Shown in pieces: positions 21,001 through 51,000 of a DNA stretch of 64,000 nt. Position numbers: made by a program. How positions within the stretch are numbered: the first letter of the stretch is position 1; each line of letters begins with the position of its first letter. Origin of the DNA: a plasmid; sequence record CP128686.1; one strand, written 5' to 3'.

Positions 21001-24000
21001 ATATCTGCGGCGGCGTACCAGTAATGGGTTAAGTGATAAAAAGTGTATGGAAATATAGGGGCCAATCCAGATAGCTTGATACGTTTCTCGTTATACCAGC
21101 GTATGTACCTGTCCAGGAAGCAGATAAATTTTTCCAGCGTGATACCAGCCCAGTTTCTGCCATAGAACATTTCGTTTTTGATACGCCCGAAGAAGCCTTC
21201 ACACGCAGCATTATCCGACGAGCATCCTTTGCGCGACATGGACCTTATAAGTCCGGATGTGTTGATACGATCGAGCCAGCCCGGCCACCGGTAATGGCCA
21301 CCACGATCGCTGTGTATTACCGGTTTATCATGTTCGTTGAGCGTATCGAGTGCTTCATAGAGCATCGTATTCACCAGCGTCGCGTCCGGGCGTGTTCCTA
21401 TCGACCAGCTTACAACCTAGCCATCAAAGCAGTCGATAACCGGCGACAATCAGCTCGTATTCTTCTGCAAGTTGCTTATCCAGTTGCCCCTGACTGTGAG
21501 CCTGAAATGCGTGAGCTATTTGCCCGTTGATATGCCGAATCAGTGGTGACAGATCGGGAAACACATACTGGACTGGTGAAAGCCTAGGAACAGGAAGAGG
21601 TCGCTCATTTTGTAAACAGGGAATCAATATTCCCGTTGATGTTGATTAAGCCACTGAGCTACCGAGCTGGCAAAGTAAGTCAATATGCCGTCTGCCCCGG
21701 CGCGTTTGAAGCATATAAGTGACTCAAGCACCGTTTGCTCTTCGTCGAGCCAGCCATGCCGGAACGCGGCCATATGCATCGCATACTCACCGGAAACCTG
21801 GTAGGCAAAAACGGGTACTGCAAAAGTTTTCCTAGCTTCCCTGATAATATCCAGATATGGCATGCCCGGCTTAACCATCACCATGTCTGCCCCCTCCTGC
21901 AAATCCTGGGCAATTTCATGCAACGCTTCCATCGCATTTGCCGGGTCCATCTGATAGTTTTTTTTGTCCCGTTTGCCCAGCGCCATGGCAGATTGAGTGG
22001 CTTCGCGAAAAGGACCGTAATAGTTTGACGCGTATTTCGCTGAATATGCCATGATCTGAATAGTCAGCAGGCCATTCGTTTCAAATGCCTGTCTGATATG
22101 TCCGATGCGGCCATCCATCATGTCGCTTGGCGCGACAATATCTGCACCCGCTTCAGCGTGCGTAAGCGCCTGTCTGGTGAGAATTTCTTTTGTCGGCTCA
22201 TTAAGCACATATCCATGTTCGTCAATGATGCCGTCCTGACCATGTGACGTATAGGCGTCAAGCGCAACGTCAGTTATCACCCCGAGTTCAGGAAAAGCCT
22301 TTTTCAGCGCCCTTACAGTTCGCGGTACTAAACCGGATGGATCCCACGAAGCGTCTGCCATCAGCGATTTAGCAGAACTTTCTATACACGGAAACAGTGC
22401 AATAGCAGGTATACCTGCCTGAACAAATTGCGCGGCATCATGAAGCAACATATCAACCGACAGGCGAAACACACCCGGCATCGACGGCACTTCCTGCCGC
22501 AGGTTTTGCCCCTCAATAATGAATACAGGTAAAATCAGGTCGTTTACGGTCAGCTGATTTTCAGCGACCAGACGGCGACTGAAAGAATGGGTACGAGAGC
22601 GACGCAGTCGTCGCGCCGGGAAAGAACCAGGAATAATAATACTCACAAAATGTACCTTTTCTTCTGCGTTCTCAGGGAGAAGTTAAGCCTGAGCAAAATA
22701 AATACGTGGCTAGCGACAGAATTCCAGTGGCAGGCCGTACTTCTGCTGTATGGAGTGCCCATTCCAGATAACGTGGCCATTTACCAGCGTCATATCAACC
22801 GCACCGCCTGACAAAATCCGGCCTTCAAAGGGAGACCATCCGCATTTGTATGCCACATCCTCCCGGATTATCTGTTGATGACTGAACGGATCGATAACCA
22901 CCAGGTCCGCCCAATAGCCTTCCCTGATATAGCCGCGATCTTTGAGCTGGAAGCGCTCGGCTACAGCATGGCTGGTCTTTCTCACCACCATTTCCGGGGT
23001 AAAAATCCCCCTGCTGCACATATCCAGCAGTGCAGGAAGAGCATGCTGCACCAGCGGTAAGCCGGAAGGCGCAGCAAAATAGTCACTCTGCTTTTCCTCC
23101 AGTAAATGCGGCGCATGGTCAGTTGCGATAACGTCGATAATGCCTTCATTAACGCCTTTCCAGAGGGCTTCCTGATGAAACGAGGTTTTTACGGATGGGT
23201 TACATTTGAGCTTATGCCCCAGCGTTTCATAATCGTCATAATTAAAAAACAGGTGATGAACGCAGGCTTCAGCCGTGATGGTTTTCTGGCGCAGCGCCTC
23301 CAGCGTGGGGGCTGCATCAAAGAGAACAAGTTCGTCTGCGGTGGTAATGTGCAGAACATGTAATCGGGTACGATGTTTTTTCGCCAGAGAGACGGCCTGG
23401 CGGGAGGATGTCAGGCAGGCGTCCACAGAACGAATAGCGGCATGCTCGCCAGGAGGAATAGCATCCCCAAAACGAGCCCGCCATATCGCCTCATTTTGCT
23501 TTATTGTCGGGGTATGCTCGCAATGTGTTGCCACAAGACAAGGGGCATTAGCGAAAATACTTTCCAGCACCTGTTCATCGTCCACCAGCATATTCCCGGT
23601 AGAAGCCCCCATAAAGACCTTCACCCCACAGGCTTGCGAAGCCGTAAGCGCTTTCAGTTCGTCAAGGTTATCGTTCGTCGCGCCGAAGTAAAAACTGTGG
23701 TTCGCCAGCGAAGAACGCGAGGCACGCTGAAATTTCTCACGCAGCGCCTGACGGGTTGTCGTGGGTGGCGTAACGTTCGGCATTTCCATAAAACTGGTAA
23801 TGCCTCCCATTACTGCGGCAGCGGATTCAGTGGCAATGGTTCCCTTATGCGTCAGACCGGGTTCGCGGAAATGAACCTGATCATCAATCATACCGGGGAT
23901 CACCCATTTCCCTCGCACATCAATAACCAGCCATTCCGGTCGGGAGGGAATAAACGAGGCAATTTTCTGGATCCGTCCCTTATCAATGAGGATGTCGGCC

Positions 24001-48000: not shown

Positions 48001-51000
48001 GGCTTAGTGGCAACGTTGCTGTCGCGGATAATTACGCTGACCGGTATTGTCGTGCTGATCGGGATGCTGCCTTGGGTATCGGGCCAGGATCCCGCCATGG
48101 CGCTGCTGAGAGCGCGTTCTGCCGAACAGGAAGCAACCCCGGAAGCATTAGCAGCGATTCGCCAGTCGCTGGGGTTCGATCAGGGCCCTGTGCAACTCCT
48201 GCTGCACTGGCTCAGCGGCCTCTTGCAGGGGGATGCAGGTAACTCTTGGATATCAGGGCGCCCGGTGCTGCCTGACATGATCCAGGCAGCCCAGGTGTCA
48301 CTGACGCTGATGCTGATGTCCGCCGTGGTGGCACTGCTGCTGGCGGCGATGATTTGCCTGCCGACATTCCGACGAGGCCTGCAGGGGCGGTCGTTTCGTT
48401 CGACGGGCTTTTTCGCGTCAGTATTCACCGCATTACCTGAATTTCTTCTGGCGTCATTCTTACTGGTCGTTGGGGCCGTCTGGCTGGAGTGGTTTCCTCC
48501 TTACGGCTGGAACGGCCTGCACTATGCGGTGCTGCCCGCGCTGGCAATGGGGATCCCGGCAGGTGGCTATCTGGGGCGGATATTCTCGGATGCTTTAGCG
48601 GCAACCTTTAGTGAAAACTGGATAATCACCTGGACCGTCTCCGGGATATCGCGTTGGCACATTACCTGCGCGGTACTTAAGCGAACGCTCTCCACCGTTA
48701 TGCCGTTAATTGGCCTGGTTTTGGTGTCATTGACGGGCAGTGCAGTGGCCGTGGAAAAGGTCTTCGCCATTCCGGGGCTCGGCAGGGCAACGCTCGGTGC
48801 CGTAGTTGCACAGGATCTTCCGGCGCTGCAAATGGGCGTGCTCTTCCTGCTCATCATTGCATTTATGTTCGGAATGCTGTGTGCGGGGATCAGATACCTC
48901 ATTCTGGGGCGGGCGTTACGCACGTCCTCTCTGCCGGTCACCAATGAACCTGACGGAAAAAGCGGGAAATTGTCGCTGTTGCTTCCGTTCGCCTGTGGCG
49001 TTGCGTTGGTCGTGCTTCTGCTTATTGGTCTGCCCCGTGATCCTTACTCGTCTGAGTTTATGCGACTGGCTCATCCTTCCTTTTCGCTGCCCTTTGGGGC
49101 CGATGCCATGGGGCGTGATTTGCTGGCCAGAGTGGCCTACGGCACAGTGCATACCTGCATGCTGGCGCTGATGGTGTCGCTTATTTGTCTGCTACTGGGG
49201 CTGGTTATTGGTCTTTTCCCCAGGGTATTTGTGGGACCGACAGAGATGGCAAATGCGCTGCCTCCGGTGATTGCGGGCTTACTGGTGGTTTCCATCAGTG
49301 GCCCCGGCAGTTTAGGTGCGGCCATTGCGATTGCAGCAGTAGGCTGGGCGCCTCTTGCCACACATACCGCGGCGCTGGCGACAGAAATTCGCGCCAGACC
49401 TTATATCAACATGCTTCCTGTTCTGGGGGTTGGCTGGCTACGTCAGAATCTGTTTTACATTTTTCCGGCACTAATTGGCCCTCTCTTTCGTCATGCTATG
49501 CTGCGCTTACCGGGGATCGCCCTAGCTTTGGCTTCACTGGGTTTTCTCGGGCTGGGCGCATCACCGCCGGAGCCGGAATGGGGAAGGGTACTTGCGGAAG
49601 GAATGCCTTATCTGGAGCGCGCCTATTGGGTCGTTCTGGCACCTGCAGTCGCCCTTGCCGTTTTGTCGGTGATGGGCGTGAGTCTGGCCGGTCTGACGGG
49701 TCAAAAAAAGTAAAAGCGTTCCATACGTTGCTATCACTATGACTGCAATGTCGAACACCTTTAAACACGTGATTCTGTTACCAGGATTAAGTCGAGATTA
49801 TTTTGAAATAACTCTGCACACTTTTTCACCGAAATTATGCTGGTGCCCATCGTCGGGCGAAGTTAGACTGAAATGTTGAGTTAAACAAGGGGGCAAAAAT
49901 GAAAGTGTTAAGTATTGTCGGGGCAACGCTGTTGGTCACGTCATTCCATGCTGCCGCATTTGTTTCTGTATCGCCGGTGCCTGCGGGGCAAAATGCGAAC
50001 GTCAGTCCTGCTGCAAACAACGGACACGCTATTCCTTCTGAAGCGGTCAATGCTGACATAACAAAGATCATTCCGATCGCTGGCTGTCACTGCGCTTTCT
50101 GCAACTCGTTGCGCGCCGCTAACCTTTGACCCCTTCTTCAGGCCTGGGTTTATCAACATTCAGGCCCTGAGTCCGCTCCTGACGTGCCGTAGGCCATGAG
50201 TATGATGGCCTGCTCCTGCCTTTCACCTGTACCCCACCTTACCGCCCAGTCGTTTATTTCACCCTTTACGGGCTGACTTGCCGCGAAAAAGCTTCCCGTA
50301 CATTCCATTAACACATCCCACGCAGCGTAGATTCAAAGAGAACTCTGTAGGAGATGTTAACAATGCCATATAAGAAAGCCTCTGTATTTGAAGATCCCCG
50401 TTTACCTGTCCCCGCTCTCTGATTTCACCCAGTCGGCGGATAAAGACTGCACGCGCAAGGGCATTTCGGGCCTCACCTTTATTCAACCCTGCCTGTACGC
50501 GTCGACGCAGGGAAGGCTCCCGGAACCAGTAATGGCCGTGAAGCGACTGTGCAATGCGCTGTTTGGCAGAACGGGCAGCCAGTGGCTGATTGTGGAAGTT
50601 TTTGGGGAGAAAGGGCGACAGCACCGCAGTACGGACAGTAACCCGGAGGCCGTTGAAAAGATGGTCAGGCATGTGATAAACCCAGTAACACCTGATAATC
50701 TGGAGGATACAGGATGAAAAAATATAAAGTTGTCACTGCAGGACTTCTCCTGGCAGGCCTTATTGCTACCGGTATCACCTGGGCAGCAGGCCAGTCCAAC
50801 GGAGAGAAGAATGCGCAATGGCGAAAACCCCTGAACGAGAGCATCACGCTTCGGTTCGGTGAAAAAGCCTATAGCGTGGATTTGTATGATAATCCCACGA
50901 CTCACGACCTGCTAAAAAAGCTGCCCCTTAACGTTCAGGCCACGGATTACCCGGGGTATGACGAGAAAGTGTTGCGCTTAGCAACACCATTATCGATGGA

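What the first reader, a model, noticed from the sequence alone, without database searches (positions are those of the whole stretch)
21624..49713. Self-contained zinc-starvation (Zur) island: own zur, at least 5 Zur boxes and about 15 zinc-independent paralogues
Within about 18 kb (plus a downstream ABC operon) sit zur, a second Fur-family regulator, and five operons each preceded by a GTTATAACATAAC-type palindrome (26097, 30164, 33453, 39286, 43427). These operons encode paralogues of enzymes that normally need zinc: an aspartate-rich (Mg-type) HemB, a PyrC/allantoinase-like amidohydrolase, an M14/AstE-like hydrolase, a ThrRS-like protein, a tandem T-fold QueD-like protein, a gamma-carbonic-anhydrase-like protein, FolE2, a CxxT DksA2, CysRS2, HisI2, plus two COG0523 GTPases and transporters. 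Individually these are the classic Zur-regulon backup genes (COG0523, folE2, dksA2, cam, pyrC2, queD2, hisI2, cysS2, thrS2 are each documented in some Zur regulons). Finding essentially the whole set, with its own regulator, packed into one IS-bounded block next to heavy-metal resistance transposons looks like a portable zinc-sparing module rather than scattered chromosomal loci.
Basis: partly seen in the sequence, partly recalled or inferred. Interest (0 to 1): 0.85.

Follow-up and report, generated by a model that had tools for sequence, protein, structure and literature searches.

The report
Known zinc-starvation island with two Zur repressors
This is the zinc-starvation gene cluster of the Klebsiella pneumoniae virulence plasmid, already catalogued in 2009, which on closer reading has two different zinc repressors, each with its own operator type, and several decayed genes.

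Summary
The window is a pLVPK/pK2044-type Klebsiella pneumoniae virulence plasmid. At least 458 plasmid records carry 80% or more of the region at about 99.9% identity.

The cluster is already published. Haas et al. [quoted passage not shown]

A PWM built from published sites, excluding pLVPK, supports four gamma-type Zur boxes: 30163, 33449, 39285 and 43428. It is the degraded relic of a box that in related islands precedes a ZnuA-type transporter, which this plasmid has lost.

I think the following is not in the literature I could search. The "second Fur-family regulator" is a second Zur of the Burkholderiales type. Three TGCAAC-N3-GTTGCA boxes (25926, 25957, 31432) are inferred to be its operators. 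These boxes control cobW1, the regulator itself and the thrS2–hemB2 operon. The layout is conserved in seven related loci down to 61% regulator identity.

"About 15 zinc-independent paralogues" is overstated. There are 11, of which thrS2 and cysS2 are dead and only HemB2, DksA2 and FolE2 are clearly zinc-free. In this window zigA is also cut by IS903. No matched IS pair bounds the block.

Zinc-responsive expression is untested.

The parts
21624..22646 (-). hemB2, an Asp-rich (Mg-type) porphobilinogen synthase and last gene of the thrS2 operon
   Evidence: Pfam ALAD 1.9e-135. The best solved-structure match is P. aeruginosa HemB 1B4K (4e-136), against E. coli 1B4E at 2e-74. The motif [14 protein letters not shown] has no cysteines.
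22710..24056 (-). pyrC2, a PRK09236-type dihydroorotase
   Evidence: NCBIfam NF006688 scores 685 bits against a cutoff of 535. Best PDB match 2GWN, 5.8e-126. Both have DDQVHFREPG (QxH instead of HxH).
24053..24904 (-). M14/AstE-like hydrolase, possibly an N-acetylornithine deacetylase type
   Evidence: Weak Pfam AstE_AspA_cat hit. NCBIfam NF052223 scores 294 bits, below its cutoff of 400. The HGEE (HxxE) motif is retained.
24897..25898 (-). thrS2 remnant, a ThrRS paralogue with an in-frame internal deletion of about 317 aa
   Evidence: Alignment with the full-length 650-aa orthologues in L005 and L007. The N2 editing domain, motifs 1 and 2, MNCPG and DDAHIF are all missing.
25926..25948 (.). 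beta-type Zur box 1 upstream of thrS2 (TAACAGCAACCATGTTGCATTAA)
   Evidence: Beta PWM 18.8 bits. It lies 27 nt from the thrS2 start and is conserved in L002, L004 and L005.
25957..25979 (.). beta-type Zur box 2 upstream of thrS2 (TTAACGCAACCTTGTTGCATTAA)
   Evidence: Beta PWM 23.9 bits. On the minus strand it is near-identical to the published C. metallidurans Rmet_1098 site gAAATGCAACAAgGTTGCATTTa.
   Evidence: Gamma PWM 6.8 bits. It aligns to good boxes in L002 and L004 (18.6 and 25.4 bits) that precede a ZnuA + ATPase + two ABC-3 permease operon absent here.
26328..27152 (+). amiA2, a DUF1460/AmiA-like putative amidase with a signal peptide
   Evidence: Pfam PF07313 4.4e-86. No convincing box lies within 340 nt.
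27169..28035 (-). queD2-like protein (two PTPS/T-fold-like halves)
   Evidence: Pfam PTPS 7.4e-10 and NCBIfam QueD 1.2e-10, both below cutoff. No sequence match to any solved structure.
28165..28725 (-). cam, a gamma-class carbonic-anhydrase-like left-handed beta-helix protein
   Evidence: Pfam Hexapep. NCBIfam carbonic anhydrase NF040597 1e-33, below cutoff.
28715..29650 (-). folE2, GTP cyclohydrolase IB
   Evidence: Pfam PF02649 2.2e-66.
29714..30136 (-). dksA2, a DksA paralogue without the Cys4 zinc finger (CxxT...SxxA)
   Evidence: Best PDB match is P. aeruginosa DksA2 4IJJ (1.8e-32), against E. coli DksA 1TJL (6.6e-21). The alignment shows the substitutions.
30163..30185 (.). gamma-type Zur box upstream of dksA2-folE2-cam-queD2
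   Evidence: Gamma PWM 23.8 bits, 26 nt from the dksA2 start. Published by Haas 2009 as the LV190 site.
30182..31405 (-). cobW1, a COG0523-like GTPase with SISS in place of CxCC; C-terminal frameshift in this window
   Evidence: Pfam cobW and CobW_C. SxSS is conserved in all but one of 14 homologues down to 53% identity; the exception reads VLSS. A 1-nt deletion in a C-run relative to L001 and L002.
31432..31454 (.). beta-type Zur box in the divergent cobW1/regA promoter (TTAATGCAATCAAGTTGCAATAA)
   Evidence: Beta PWM 23.6 bits, 26 nt from the cobW1 start and 48 nt from the regA start. A box is present at the same place in L002-L005, L007, L008 and L019.
31503..31955 (+). regA, a divergent Fur-family repressor inferred to be a Burkholderiales-type Zur
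   Evidence: Pfam FUR. PDB matches to PerR, Fur and Zur are all weak. The nearest relatives outside Enterobacterales, where named, are mostly Paraburkholderia, Thiomonas, Brachymonas and Variovorax (one is a Salinispirillum). Two checked examples lie in znuACB or cobW contexts behind the same box type.
32036..33417 (+). cysS2 pseudogene (frameshift and internal stop), downstream of regA
   Evidence: Split into ORFs 32106-33092 and 33144-33416. PGAP marks it as a pseudogene in L001. It is an intact 460-aa gene in Pantoea L019.
33449..33471 (.). gamma-type Zur box upstream of the flavoprotein/FeoB-like operon
   Evidence: Gamma PWM 17.3 bits, 15 nt from the start codon. Conserved in L002, L004, L005, L008 and L019 (21-26 bits).
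33487..36486 (+). operon of a Pyr_redox_3 flavoprotein, a 549-aa FeoB-like GTPase/Gate transporter and an unannotated 68-aa ORF
   Evidence: Pfam Pyr_redox_3 1.4e-93; FeoB_N plus Gate. NCBIfam feoB 118 bits, below its cutoff of 315. The small ORF 36280-36486 was read from the sequence and matches no family.
36701..37757 (+). IS903-like element (1057 bp) inserted in zigA, with a 9-bp target duplication CCGGGCATC
   Evidence: Terminal inverted repeats GGCTTTGTTGAATAAAT and the duplication were read from the sequence. Pfam DDE_Tnp_1. Absent from L001.
36554..38831 (-). zigA (COG0523 zinc metallochaperone GTPase), interrupted after about codon 358 of 406
   Evidence: NCBIfam ZigA NF038288 scores 644 bits against a cutoff of 600. 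The GCICC motif is present.
38868..39275 (-). hisI2, phosphoribosyl-AMP cyclohydrolase paralogue that retains the Cys ligands
   Evidence: Pfam PRA-CH 4.2e-35. C94, C111 and C118 are present.
39285..39307 (.). gamma-type Zur box in the divergent hisI2-zigA / regB promoter
   Evidence: Gamma PWM 25.5 bits. Published by Haas 2009 as the LV196 site.
39414..39914 (+). regB, a gamma-type Zur homologue
   Evidence: Best PDB matches are E. coli Zur 4MTD (1e-18) and Xanthomonas Zur 7DH7 (1.6e-13). NCBIfam Zur is the top hit at 84.5 bits, below its cutoff of 167.
40290..43243 (.). decayed spacer: IS630-family pseudogene, a 161-aa hypothetical ORF and an M20 amidohydrolase fragment
   Evidence: Pfam DDE_3, HTH and Peptidase_M20. 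PGAP marks the pseudogenes in L001.
43428..43450 (.). gamma-type Zur box upstream of the ABC operon
   Evidence: Gamma PWM 23.5 bits, 21 nt from the ATG at 43472.
43472..49713 (+). Nik/Opp/Cnt-type ABC importer (two ATPases, family-5 binding protein, fused permease) with an MdtH-like MFS gene
   Evidence: The best NCBIfam hits are NikD/NikE/CntD/CntF, Opp5A_nikA and nickel-type permeases, all below cutoff. Pfam SBP_bac_5, BPD_transp_1 and MFS_1.

Best explanation
**What it is.** The region is the zinc-starvation (Zur-regulon) island of pLVPK-type K. pneumoniae virulence plasmids, a cluster already catalogued by comparative genomics.

**How it most likely works (inferred).** When zinc is sufficient, two island-encoded Fur-family repressors sit on palindromic operators that lie 15-60 bp upstream of the start codons and block transcription. 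When zinc falls, for example through host calprotectin, they release.

**The regB circuit.** RegB is a gamma-proteobacterial-type Zur.
- Its inferred operators are the TGTTATgTTATAACA-type boxes.
- These score like the E. coli znuA/znuC operator, so the host Zur probably binds them too.
- They precede dksA2-folE2-cam-queD2, the flavoprotein/FeoB-like operon, hisI2-zigA with regB itself, and a Nik/Cnt-like ABC importer.

**The regA circuit.** RegA is a divergent Fur-family protein whose nearest relatives outside Enterobacterales are Burkholderiales regulators in zinc-gene contexts.
- Its inferred operators are ATGCAAC-N3-GTTGCAT boxes, the operator type published for Cupriavidus, Ralstonia and Methylobacillus Zur.
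- One box lies in the divergent cobW1/regA(-cysS2) promoter.
- Two tandem boxes precede the thrS2-M14-pyrC2-hemB2 operon. By analogy with multi-box Zur promoters elsewhere, this may make repression more stringent.

**What the products do.**
- They spare zinc (Mg-type HemB2, FolE2, zinc-finger-less DksA2).
- Or they add copies of zinc enzymes (HisI2, Cam, M14, QueD2).
- Or they move or insert metal (ZigA, transporters).

**State of this copy.** It is a worn version. thrS2 and cysS2 are dead, a ZnuA-type importer has been lost, and in this window zigA carries IS903 and cobW1 a terminal frameshift.

**Shown versus inferred.**
- Shown: gene identities, box positions and scores, conservation across loci, and ligand residues.
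- Inferred: which protein binds which box, zinc responsiveness, and any fitness effect.
For: **Identity and prior description.**
- Matches at about 99.9% identity in at least 458 plasmids.
- PGAP annotation of the same genes.

**Gamma boxes.**
- Four sites score 17-25.5 bits, all within 30 nt of a start codon.
- The E. coli znuA/C positive control scores 24.4.
- The boxes are conserved at the same promoters in L002, L004, L005, L007, L008 and L019.

**RegB.** The best matches are E. coli and Xanthomonas Zur.

**Beta boxes.**
- Three sites score 18.8-23.9 bits.
- A box is present between cobW1 and regA in all seven related loci that carry regA. It is also present upstream of thrS2 in L002, L004, L005, L007 and L019, including Pantoea at 61% regA identity.
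- No box is found in three loci that have a cobW1 homologue but no regA. Two of these use gamma boxes instead.
- Sequence with regA-family genes (193 kb) has 23 hits at 16 bits or more. Sequence without them (128 kb) has one.

**RegA relatives.**
- The named relatives are mostly Paraburkholderia, Thiomonas, Brachymonas and Variovorax, at 36-46% identity.
- The Thiomonas gene closes a znuA-znuC-znuB operon that has a 23.6-bit beta box upstream of znuA.
- The Paraburkholderia gene neighbours a ZigA-like cobW behind two tandem beta boxes.
- Even a 28%-identical Balneolales homologue has a 23.7-bit box 34 bp upstream.

**Literature on tandem boxes.**
- The C. metallidurans cobW1 operon has two Zur boxes and is expressed only under zinc starvation or without Zur (PMC10882993).
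- The review PMC6103462 discusses promoters with more than one Zur box as a likely route to more stringent repression.

**Zinc-free ligand sets.** HemB2 and DksA2.
Against: - No expression, binding or phenotype data exist for this island in the literature I could search.
- RegA has no sequence-level assignment. PerR, Fur and Zur all match weakly (E 6e-7 to 2e-3).
- I could not compare regA directly with the experimentally studied C. metallidurans Zur protein.
- The beta PWM rests on only 8 training sites, and the 25926 box (18.8 bits) is only just above the random maximum (19.1 in shuffles).
- Several paralogues retain the expected zinc-ligand residues, so "zinc-sparing" does not explain all of them.
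- Four genes are damaged in this window, so part of the circuit may be non-functional cargo.
- amiA2 has no convincing operator.
Confidence: 0.75

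Rival explanations
1. One Zur (plus an unrelated Fur-family regulator) controls five operons through GTTATAACATAAC-type boxes, and the block is a portable, IS-bounded, fully zinc-independent backup module.
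For: - Four GTTATAAC-type boxes are real.
- RegB is Zur-like.
- IS and transposon relics flank the block, and metal-resistance transposons lie next to it.
Against: - The fifth box scores 6.8 bits and is a relic.
- The thrS2-hemB2 operon and cobW1 are preceded only by GCAAC-type boxes.
- There is no matched IS pair.
- thrS2 and cysS2 are dead, and several paralogues keep the expected zinc-ligand residues.
Confidence: 0.1
2. RegA senses something other than zinc (iron, manganese, nickel, cobalt or peroxide). The GCAAC boxes then place cobW1 and the thrS2-hemB2 operon under a second, non-zinc signal, so the island integrates two metals.
For: - By sequence, RegA is no closer to Zur than to PerR or Fur.
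- The region between the DNA-binding domain and the first CxxC lacks the His residues found at the corresponding place in E. coli Zur (the position of the Zur sensing site is my own knowledge).
- Published work ties COG0523 proteins of C. metallidurans to both cobalt and zinc (PMC11340326, abstract).
Against: - The same box type is the published Zur box of Cupriavidus, Ralstonia and Methylobacillus in front of zur, yciC and dksA2.
- RegA relatives sit in a znuACB operon and next to a ZigA-like gene behind such boxes.
- The regulated genes are classic Zur-regulon paralogues.
- cobW1 homologues that lack a regA neighbour sit behind ordinary gamma Zur boxes.
Confidence: 0.1
3. The island is functionally decaying cargo on the virulence plasmid. 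It is kept because it is linked to iuc/iro/rmpA, and contributes nothing to zinc-limited growth or virulence.
For: - thrS2 has an internal deletion.
- cysS2 is frameshifted.
- The ZnuA-type operon has been lost.
- Pseudogenised IS630 and M20 fragments are present.
- In this window zigA carries IS903 and cobW1 a frameshift.
- Another plasmid (p.P20Z) has lost hemB2 and part of pyrC2.
Against: - Most genes and all seven strong operators are intact.
- The same architecture is maintained in distant Enterobacterales under evident purifying selection, at 60-90% protein identity with the boxes conserved.
- The near-identity among plasmids reflects recent spread, so it argues neither way.
Confidence: 0.25

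Closest known systems
Zur-regulated gene cluster of pLVPK described by Haas, Rodionov et al. 2009 (BMC Genomics 10:470, PMC2770081)
   Same: It is the same DNA. The same paralogue families are named there: HisI, PyrC, Cam, HemB, CysRS, ThrRS, AmiA, QueD, DksA, FolE2 and COG0523. The LV196 (hisI2-yciC) and LV190 (dksA2-folE2-cam) Zur sites equal the window boxes at 39285 and 30163.
   Different: - Their site table lists only those two gamma-type sites for pLVPK.
- It has no site for the thrS2-hemB2 operon, cobW1, the flavoprotein/FeoB-like operon or the ABC operon.
- It does not count cobW1 as COG0523, because their definition requires CxCC.
- The second regulator, its operator class and the gene decay are not in the text or tables I could read. 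Figure 5 itself is not held.
Cupriavidus metallidurans Zur regulon, cobW1 operon Op0317f_1 (cobW1-folE_IB2-cysS2-queD-allB/pyrC2-cam)
   Same: - A similar set of paralogues sits next to a COG0523 gene.
- The published operator gAAATGCAACAAgGTTGCATTTa is nearly identical to the window box at 25957-25979.
- Two Zur boxes there confine expression to zinc starvation or loss of Zur. This parallels the tandem boxes before thrS2.
   Different: - C. metallidurans has a single Zur and a single operator class.
- Here that operator class coexists with a gamma-type Zur circuit in one island in an enterobacterial host.
- I could not compare RegA with the C. metallidurans Zur protein itself.
Pseudomonas aeruginosa PA5534-PA5541 zinc-starvation cluster (dksA2, COG0523, amiA2, folE2, cam, pyrC2)
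   Same: It has the same kinds of genes behind gamma-type Zur boxes. The window DksA2 is closest to the solved P. aeruginosa DksA2 (4IJJ) and the window HemB2 to P. aeruginosa Mg-type HemB (1B4K).
   Different: It is chromosomal and controlled by the single host Zur. It has no embedded regulators and no second operator type.
Staphylococcus aureus Cnt (staphylopine) transport genes cntABCDF-cntE
   Same: The same component set: two ATPases, a family-5 binding protein, permeases and an MFS exporter. NCBIfam CntD/CntF score about as well as NikD/NikE. Zinc regulation of cnt is my own knowledge.
   Different: No cntKLM-like biosynthesis genes are present. All NCBIfam scores are below cutoff. The substrate is unknown.

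Membership tests
Zur regulon / zinc-starvation paralogue cluster (sensu Haas et al. 2009) | Candidate Zur-binding palindromes immediately upstream of the operons | tested here: met
   Four gamma-type boxes (17-25.5 bits) and three beta-type boxes (18.8-23.9 bits), 15-58 nt from start codons. PWMs were built from published sites excluding pLVPK. Shuffle and positive controls were run.
Zur regulon / zinc-starvation paralogue cluster (sensu Haas et al. 2009) | A COG0523 GTPase with a P-loop and the CxCC motif in the cluster | tested here: met
   zigA: NCBIfam ZigA 644 bits against a cutoff of 600, with GCICC present. In this window it is interrupted by IS903.
Zur regulon / zinc-starvation paralogue cluster (sensu Haas et al. 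2009) | Paralogues of zinc enzymes that have lost their zinc ligands | tested here: inconclusive
   Met for HemB2 (Asp-rich), DksA2 (CxxT/SxxA) and FolE2. PyrC2 has QxH. HisI2, Cam, M14, QueD2 and CysRS2 keep ligand-type residues, as does full-length ThrRS2 in relatives. Metal content is not testable here.
Zur regulon / zinc-starvation paralogue cluster (sensu Haas et al. 2009) | Derepression under zinc limitation or in a zur mutant | not testable with these tools
   No expression data for these genes in the papers searched.
Zur (zinc uptake regulator, Fur family): regB | Sequence membership in the curated Zur family | tested here: inconclusive
   NCBIfam NF008646 is the top hit at 84.5 bits, but its cutoff is 167. 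Best PDB matches are E. coli Zur (1e-18) and Xanthomonas Zur (1.6e-13).
Zur (zinc uptake regulator, Fur family): regA | Sequence membership in the curated Zur family | tested here: not met
   NF008646 scores 32 bits against a cutoff of 167. PerR, Fur and Zur structures all match weakly. The assignment as a Zur-like repressor rests on operator type, gene context of relatives and co-occurrence.
Zur (zinc uptake regulator, Fur family): regA | Structural Cys4 site (two CxxC pairs) of Fur-family proteins | tested here: met
   C97/C100 and C141/C144 are invariant in the alignment of regA with nine relatives.
COG0523 metallochaperone GTPases: cobW1 | Conserved CxCC metal-binding motif in switch I (stated to be present in all members by Haas 2009) | tested here: not met
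   cobW1 has SISS at that position. The serine motif is conserved in all but one of 14 homologues down to 53% identity; the exception reads VLSS. The GTPase motifs ([13 protein letters not shown], TKxD) are present. It is therefore COG0523-like but not a canonical member.
Composite transposon or discrete mobile island | Matched IS copies or inverted terminal repeats at both ends, with target-site duplications | tested here: not met
   Only one 43-nt repeat pair was found (18337 and 52135, 77% identity, direct orientation), and no inverted pair. The flanking elements are pseudogenes or fragments. Related islands lie on very large (1.3-5.3 Mb) scaffolds and are presumably chromosomal.
Threonyl-tRNA synthetase: thrS2 | Complete class II catalytic core (motifs 1-3) with the Cys/His/His zinc site | tested here: not met
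   NCBIfam thrS scores 296 bits against a cutoff of 384 and covers only model positions 319-562. An in-frame deletion of about 317 aa relative to L005 and L007 removes motifs 1 and 2 and the MNCPG and DDAHIF motifs. These motifs hold two of the three zinc ligands by my own knowledge.

The most novel reading that the evidence does not exclude
The island carries two orthogonal zinc repressors.
- One (regB) shares operator specificity with the host Zur.
- The other (regA) is a Burkholderiales-type Zur whose TGCAAC-N3-GTTGCA operators the host Zur should not recognise.

If so, part of the zinc-starvation response (cobW1, regA-cysS2, thrS2-M14-pyrC2-hemB2) is insulated from the host regulon. With tandem boxes it may be set to a different zinc threshold.

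The gene most tightly coupled to regA is a conserved COG0523-like GTPase whose CxCC motif is replaced by SxSS. That implies a metal-independent role for a "metallochaperone" paralogue.

Neither point is in the literature I could search.
Probability: 0.55. Interest if true: 0.55.

Novelty: already known. Interest (0 to 1): 0.35.

Why it matters
Hypervirulent K. pneumoniae meets calprotectin-mediated zinc starvation in abscesses. Its virulence plasmid is studied almost entirely for siderophores and capsule regulators.

This plasmid also carries a Zur-type regulon of about 28 kb. It was listed in a 2009 comparative-genomics paper and, in the library I could search, has never been tested in hypervirulent strains.

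The cluster is therefore a ready-made hypothesis for plasmid-borne resistance to nutritional immunity, rather than a discovery.

Two refinements are small but testable additions to Zur biology:
- two repressors with distinct operator classes within one island;
- a conserved cysteine-less COG0523 clade under Zur control.

They also bear on how horizontally acquired regulons avoid or exploit cross-talk with the host regulator.

Tried and rejected
I searched with the 13-mer at up to 2 mismatches and scanned with the PWM. It was not found (best 6.8 bits). It is explained as a relic by alignment with L002 and L004.

**Classifying regA by sequence.** PDB phmmer and NCBIfam were inconclusive: PerR, Fur and Zur are all weak.

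**Tracing regA to Cupriavidus or Ralstonia.**
- Names for 20 HMMER representatives gave several Burkholderiales, but no Cupriavidus or Ralstonia.
- The link to the experimentally studied C. metallidurans Zur is therefore through the operator sequence only.
- The Bütof 2017 paper with the binding experiments is not held.

**ZniCBA.** I considered that the ZnuA-type operon in the chromosomal island might be the ZniCBA importer of Maunders et al. I rejected this because zniCBA lies between mltB and pncC.

**Promoter and terminator scan.**
- It showed no enrichment over shuffles.
- It is useful only for noting that -10-like hexamers overlap or abut the boxes at 31451-31456 and 30181-30186.

**Composite transposon.** Rejected, because there is no matched IS pair.

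**QueD2-like protein.** It has no sequence match to any solved structure.

**Not done.** No structure prediction was run. It would not have settled metal specificity.

Full report
**Where the window comes from.** Bases 21000-44000 match at least 458 PLSDB plasmids over 80% or more of their length at about 99.9% identity. Nearly all are Klebsiella pneumoniae IncFIB/IncHI1B virulence plasmids. They also match 15 E. coli genomes that carry such plasmids, mostly from conjugation experiments. The left flank holds silP, pcoABCDRS, cadR with a P-type ATPase and lspA, and a Tn3-family resolvase and transposase. The right flank runs into fecIRA. This is the pLVPK/pK2044-type virulence plasmid.

For the boxes I built a 23-nt PWM from the 38 gamma-proteobacterial Zur sites in Additional file 5 of Haas et al. 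2009, leaving out the pLVPK sites.
- Four sites score inside the training range of 14-32 bits: 30163 (23.8), 33449 (17.3), 39285 (25.5) and 43428 (23.5).
- In 100 Markov-shuffled windows the best score has a mean of 9.7 and a 95th percentile of 14.5.
- The experimentally known E. coli K-12 znuA/znuC operator scores 24.4 as a positive control.
- All four sites lie 15-26 nt from a start codon.

**Already published.** Haas, Rodionov and colleagues (BMC Genomics 2009, PMC2770081) name exactly these paralogue families as Zur-regulon members. [quoted passage not shown] Their site table lists LV196 hisI2-yciC (the window box at 39285) and LV190 dksA2-folE2-cam (30163). [quoted passage not shown] In the held library no other paper links this plasmid to COG0523, dksA2 or zinc paralogues, and recent K. 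pneumoniae zinc papers do not mention it. The finding as stated is therefore known from comparative genomics, though apparently never tested experimentally.

**A second operator class.** Reading the intergenic regions showed a different palindrome, TTAAYGCAAY-N3-GTTGCAWTAA. Two tandem copies lie 27 and 58 nt upstream of thrS2 (25926, 25957). One lies between cobW1 and the first Fur-family gene, regA (31432).

This is the Zur box that Haas et al. list for Methylobacillus, Ralstonia and Cupriavidus. On the minus strand the 25957 site reads TTAATGCAACAAGGTTGCGTTAA. The published C. metallidurans Rmet_1098 site is gAAATGCAACAAgGTTGCATTTa.

A PWM from those 8 published sites scores the three window sites at 18.8, 23.9 and 23.6 bits. 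The training range is 22-28 and the largest score in any shuffle is 19.1. The E. coli znu region reaches at most 7.3.

**Linking regA to these boxes.**
- *Sequence alone.* RegA (150 aa) is not classifiable this way. PerR, Fur and Zur structures all match weakly, and the NCBIfam Zur model gives 32 bits against a cutoff of 167.
- *Nearest relatives.* A full HMMER search of 1.84 billion representatives finds only 35 at E ≤ 1e-10. Outside Enterobacterales the nearest are 36-46% identical. Where named, they are mostly Paraburkholderia, Thiomonas, Brachymonas, Variovorax and an unclassified betaproteobacterium, with one Salinispirillum.
- *Gene context.* The Thiomonas gene is the last gene of a znuA-znuC-znuB operon with a 23.6-bit beta box just upstream of znuA. 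The Paraburkholderia gene lies beside a ZigA-like cobW preceded by two tandem beta boxes.
- *Conservation.* Seven related loci carry regA homologues: K. pneumoniae ATCC 13883 (two copies), Superficieibacter, Kluyvera, a contig labelled Martelella alba, Shimwellia and Pantoea agglomerans. Their regA identity runs from 99% down to 61%. All keep a beta box between cobW1 and regA, with variable spacers and conserved half-sites. Five keep boxes upstream of thrS2.
- *Absence without regA.* Three loci have a cobW1 homologue but no regA, and none has a beta box. Two of them (Pectobacterium and a Pseudomonas graminis plasmid) place cobW1 behind strong gamma boxes instead.
- *Counts.* The 193 kb with regA-family genes holds 23 beta hits at 16 bits or more. 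The 128 kb without them holds one. A 28%-identical Balneolales homologue also has a 23.7-bit box 34 bp upstream of its gene.

I conclude that regA is a Zur of the betaproteobacterial operator class. This is an inference from operator type, context and co-occurrence. It is not based on a binding experiment.

**RegB.** RegB is closest to E. coli Zur (4MTD, 1e-18) and Xanthomonas Zur. It sits divergently from hisI2-zigA across the 39285 box. It evolves fast: 38-65% identity between island versions, whereas the flanking hisI2 and zigA are 72-99% identical.

**State of the genes.**
- *HemB2* has the cysteine-free [14 protein letters not shown] motif. It matches P. aeruginosa Mg-type HemB far better than E. 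coli HemB.
- *DksA2* reads CxxT...SxxA and is closest to the solved P. aeruginosa DksA2.
- *PyrC2* has QVH where the HxH motif normally lies. It shares this with its best structural relative, 2GWN, so zinc independence is not established.
- *HisI2, Cam and M14* keep Cys or His ligand-type residues.
- *thrS2* is only a remnant. The 333-aa ORF equals the first 80 and last about 250 residues of a 650-aa thrS2 that is intact in Kluyvera, the Martelella-labelled contig and Pantoea. It has lost the editing domain, motifs 1 and 2, and the MNCPG and DDAHIF motifs, which by my own knowledge hold two of the three zinc ligands.
- *cysS2* is frameshifted with an internal stop, but is intact in Pantoea.
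- *zigA* is interrupted in this window by a 1057-bp IS903-like element with a 9-bp duplication.
- *cobW1* has lost one C from a homopolymer. This shifts its last roughly 20 codons relative to other copies and may be an assembly error.

**CobW1 is not a canonical COG0523.** The CxCC motif, which Haas et al. say all members share and which they used as an inclusion criterion, is replaced by SISS. The serine version is conserved in all but one of the 14 homologues sampled, down to 53% identity. They span Pectobacterium, Kosakonia, Erwinia, Pantoea, Brenneria, Rouxiella, Obesumbacterium, Vibrio, Pseudomonas graminis and Celerinatantimonas. The exception is a Bacteroidota MAG protein that reads VLSS. 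The P-loop, ETSG and TKxD motifs are kept. This probably explains why the 2009 table shows no COG0523 for the dksA2 operon.

Alignment shows that the 26097 site corresponds to a good gamma box in the ATCC 13883 and Superficieibacter islands (18.6 and 25.4 bits). There it precedes a ZnuA-type binding protein, an ATPase and two ABC-3 permeases. In pLVPK the operon is gone and the box is degraded. That operon is not ZniCBA, which lies between mltB and pncC.

**Mobility.** The block is not a discrete element.
- The left edge has an IS3-family pseudogene and a transposase fragment.
- An IS630 pseudogene and an M20 fragment separate regB from the ABC operon.
- The only long repeat is a pair of Tn3-family terminal-repeat relics in direct orientation.
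- Related islands lie on a 5.28-Mb K. pneumoniae scaffold and a 1.3-Mb Superficieibacter contig, so chromosomal versions presumably exist. In Kluyvera the Nik/Cnt-like ABC operon abuts regB in the opposite orientation.
- The cluster has clearly moved between replicons and species, but how it moves is not visible here.

**Mechanism.** The most likely working model is two zinc-loaded repressors, with derepression when zinc is scarce.
- RegB, and probably the host Zur, act on four gamma-box promoters.
- RegA acts on the divergent cobW1/regA-cysS2 promoter and, through two tandem boxes, on thrS2-M14-pyrC2-hemB2.
- In C. metallidurans, the cobW1 operon with two Zur boxes is expressed only under zinc starvation or when Zur is absent (PMC10882993). 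A review discusses multiple Zur boxes as a probable route to more stringent repression (PMC6103462). A similar tiering is plausible here but untested.
- Promoter-like hexamers overlap or abut the boxes at cobW1 and dksA2, but such matches are not enriched over shuffles.

**Verdict.** However, the cluster has been in the literature since 2009, so it is not a discovery. The dual-operator architecture, the cysteine-less COG0523 clade and the Zur-box-preceded flavoprotein/FeoB-like operon are modest, testable additions. Interest is 0.35.

Noticed in passing
window 30182-31405 (cobW1) and homologues P0263-P0376: A well-populated clade of COG0523-like GTPases has S-[IV]-S-S where the family-defining CxCC motif should be. 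The serine motif is conserved down to 53% identity in Enterobacterales, Vibrio, Pseudomonas and Celerinatantimonas, with one exception (a Bacteroidota MAG protein reads VLSS). Of five distinct contexts examined, four place it behind a Zur-type box, either beta or gamma; the Vibrio locus has none.
   Followed up: partly
window 33449-36486: A gamma-type Zur box precedes an operon of a Pyr_redox_3 flavoprotein, a short (549-aa) FeoB-like GTPase/Gate transporter and an unannotated 68-aa ORF (36280-36486). The pair is conserved in four related islands (L002, L004, L005, L008); Pantoea keeps the flavoprotein and its box. It is not among the paralogue families named in the text of the 2009 paper, and its function is unknown.
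   Followed up: partly
window 36701-37757: A 1057-bp IS903-like element with terminal repeats GGCTTTGTTGAATAAAT and a 9-bp target duplication CCGGGCATC interrupts zigA after about codon 358. It is absent from plasmid NZ_CP068707 (L001).
   Followed up: yes
window about 30250 (C-run inside cobW1): A C5 run here is C6 or C7 in L001 and L002. This shifts the last roughly 20 codons of cobW1 and moves its stop into the dksA2 Zur box. It could be a real mutation or a homopolymer assembly error.
   Followed up: yes
window 24897-25898; L005 2369-4354; L007 3315-5342: thrS2 on pLVPK-type plasmids is an in-frame fusion of the TGS domain to the C-terminal half of a ThrRS paralogue. PGAP still annotates it as threonine--tRNA ligase.
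   Followed up: yes
window 26088-26200; L002 1345-4824; L004 1354 onward: Related chromosomal islands carry a Zur-boxed ZnuA-type binding protein, an ATPase and two ABC-3 permeases between thrS2 and amiA2. The plasmid retains only the degraded box and about 100 nt of the first gene.
   Followed up: yes
window 39414-39914; L002 16837-17340; L004, L005, L007: regB is only 38-65% identical between island versions, whereas the adjacent hisI2 and zigA are 72-99% identical. This suggests fast evolution or replacement of this regulator. Several orthologues seem to use non-ATG starts.
   Followed up: partly
window 18337-18379 and 52135-52177: Two Tn3/Tn21-family terminal inverted-repeat relics (77% identical) lie in direct orientation 33.8 kb apart and bracket the whole island. 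In L001 an IS5075 lies in the region corresponding to the right-hand one.
   Followed up: partly
L006 (Streptomyces malaysiensis, 1.2-kb contig) and L007 (Martelella alba, 20.5-kb contig): Contigs filed under an actinomycete and an alphaproteobacterium carry enterobacterial versions of this island (regA 99% and 75% identical). They are probably contamination or mislabelled assemblies.
   Followed up: no
L016 (NZ_CP040355.1, plasmid p.P20Z) 21624-22775: This otherwise identical plasmid has a deletion that removes hemB2 and part of pyrC2, leaving a 383-aa 'amidohydrolase'. It is further evidence of ongoing erosion of the island.
   Followed up: no
window 52762-52784: A weak gamma-type Zur-like match (13.3 bits, ACATTGTTATGCAGTTACATAAC) lies outside the island, about 600 bp beyond the Tn3-repeat relic. 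It is at chance level.
   Followed up: no
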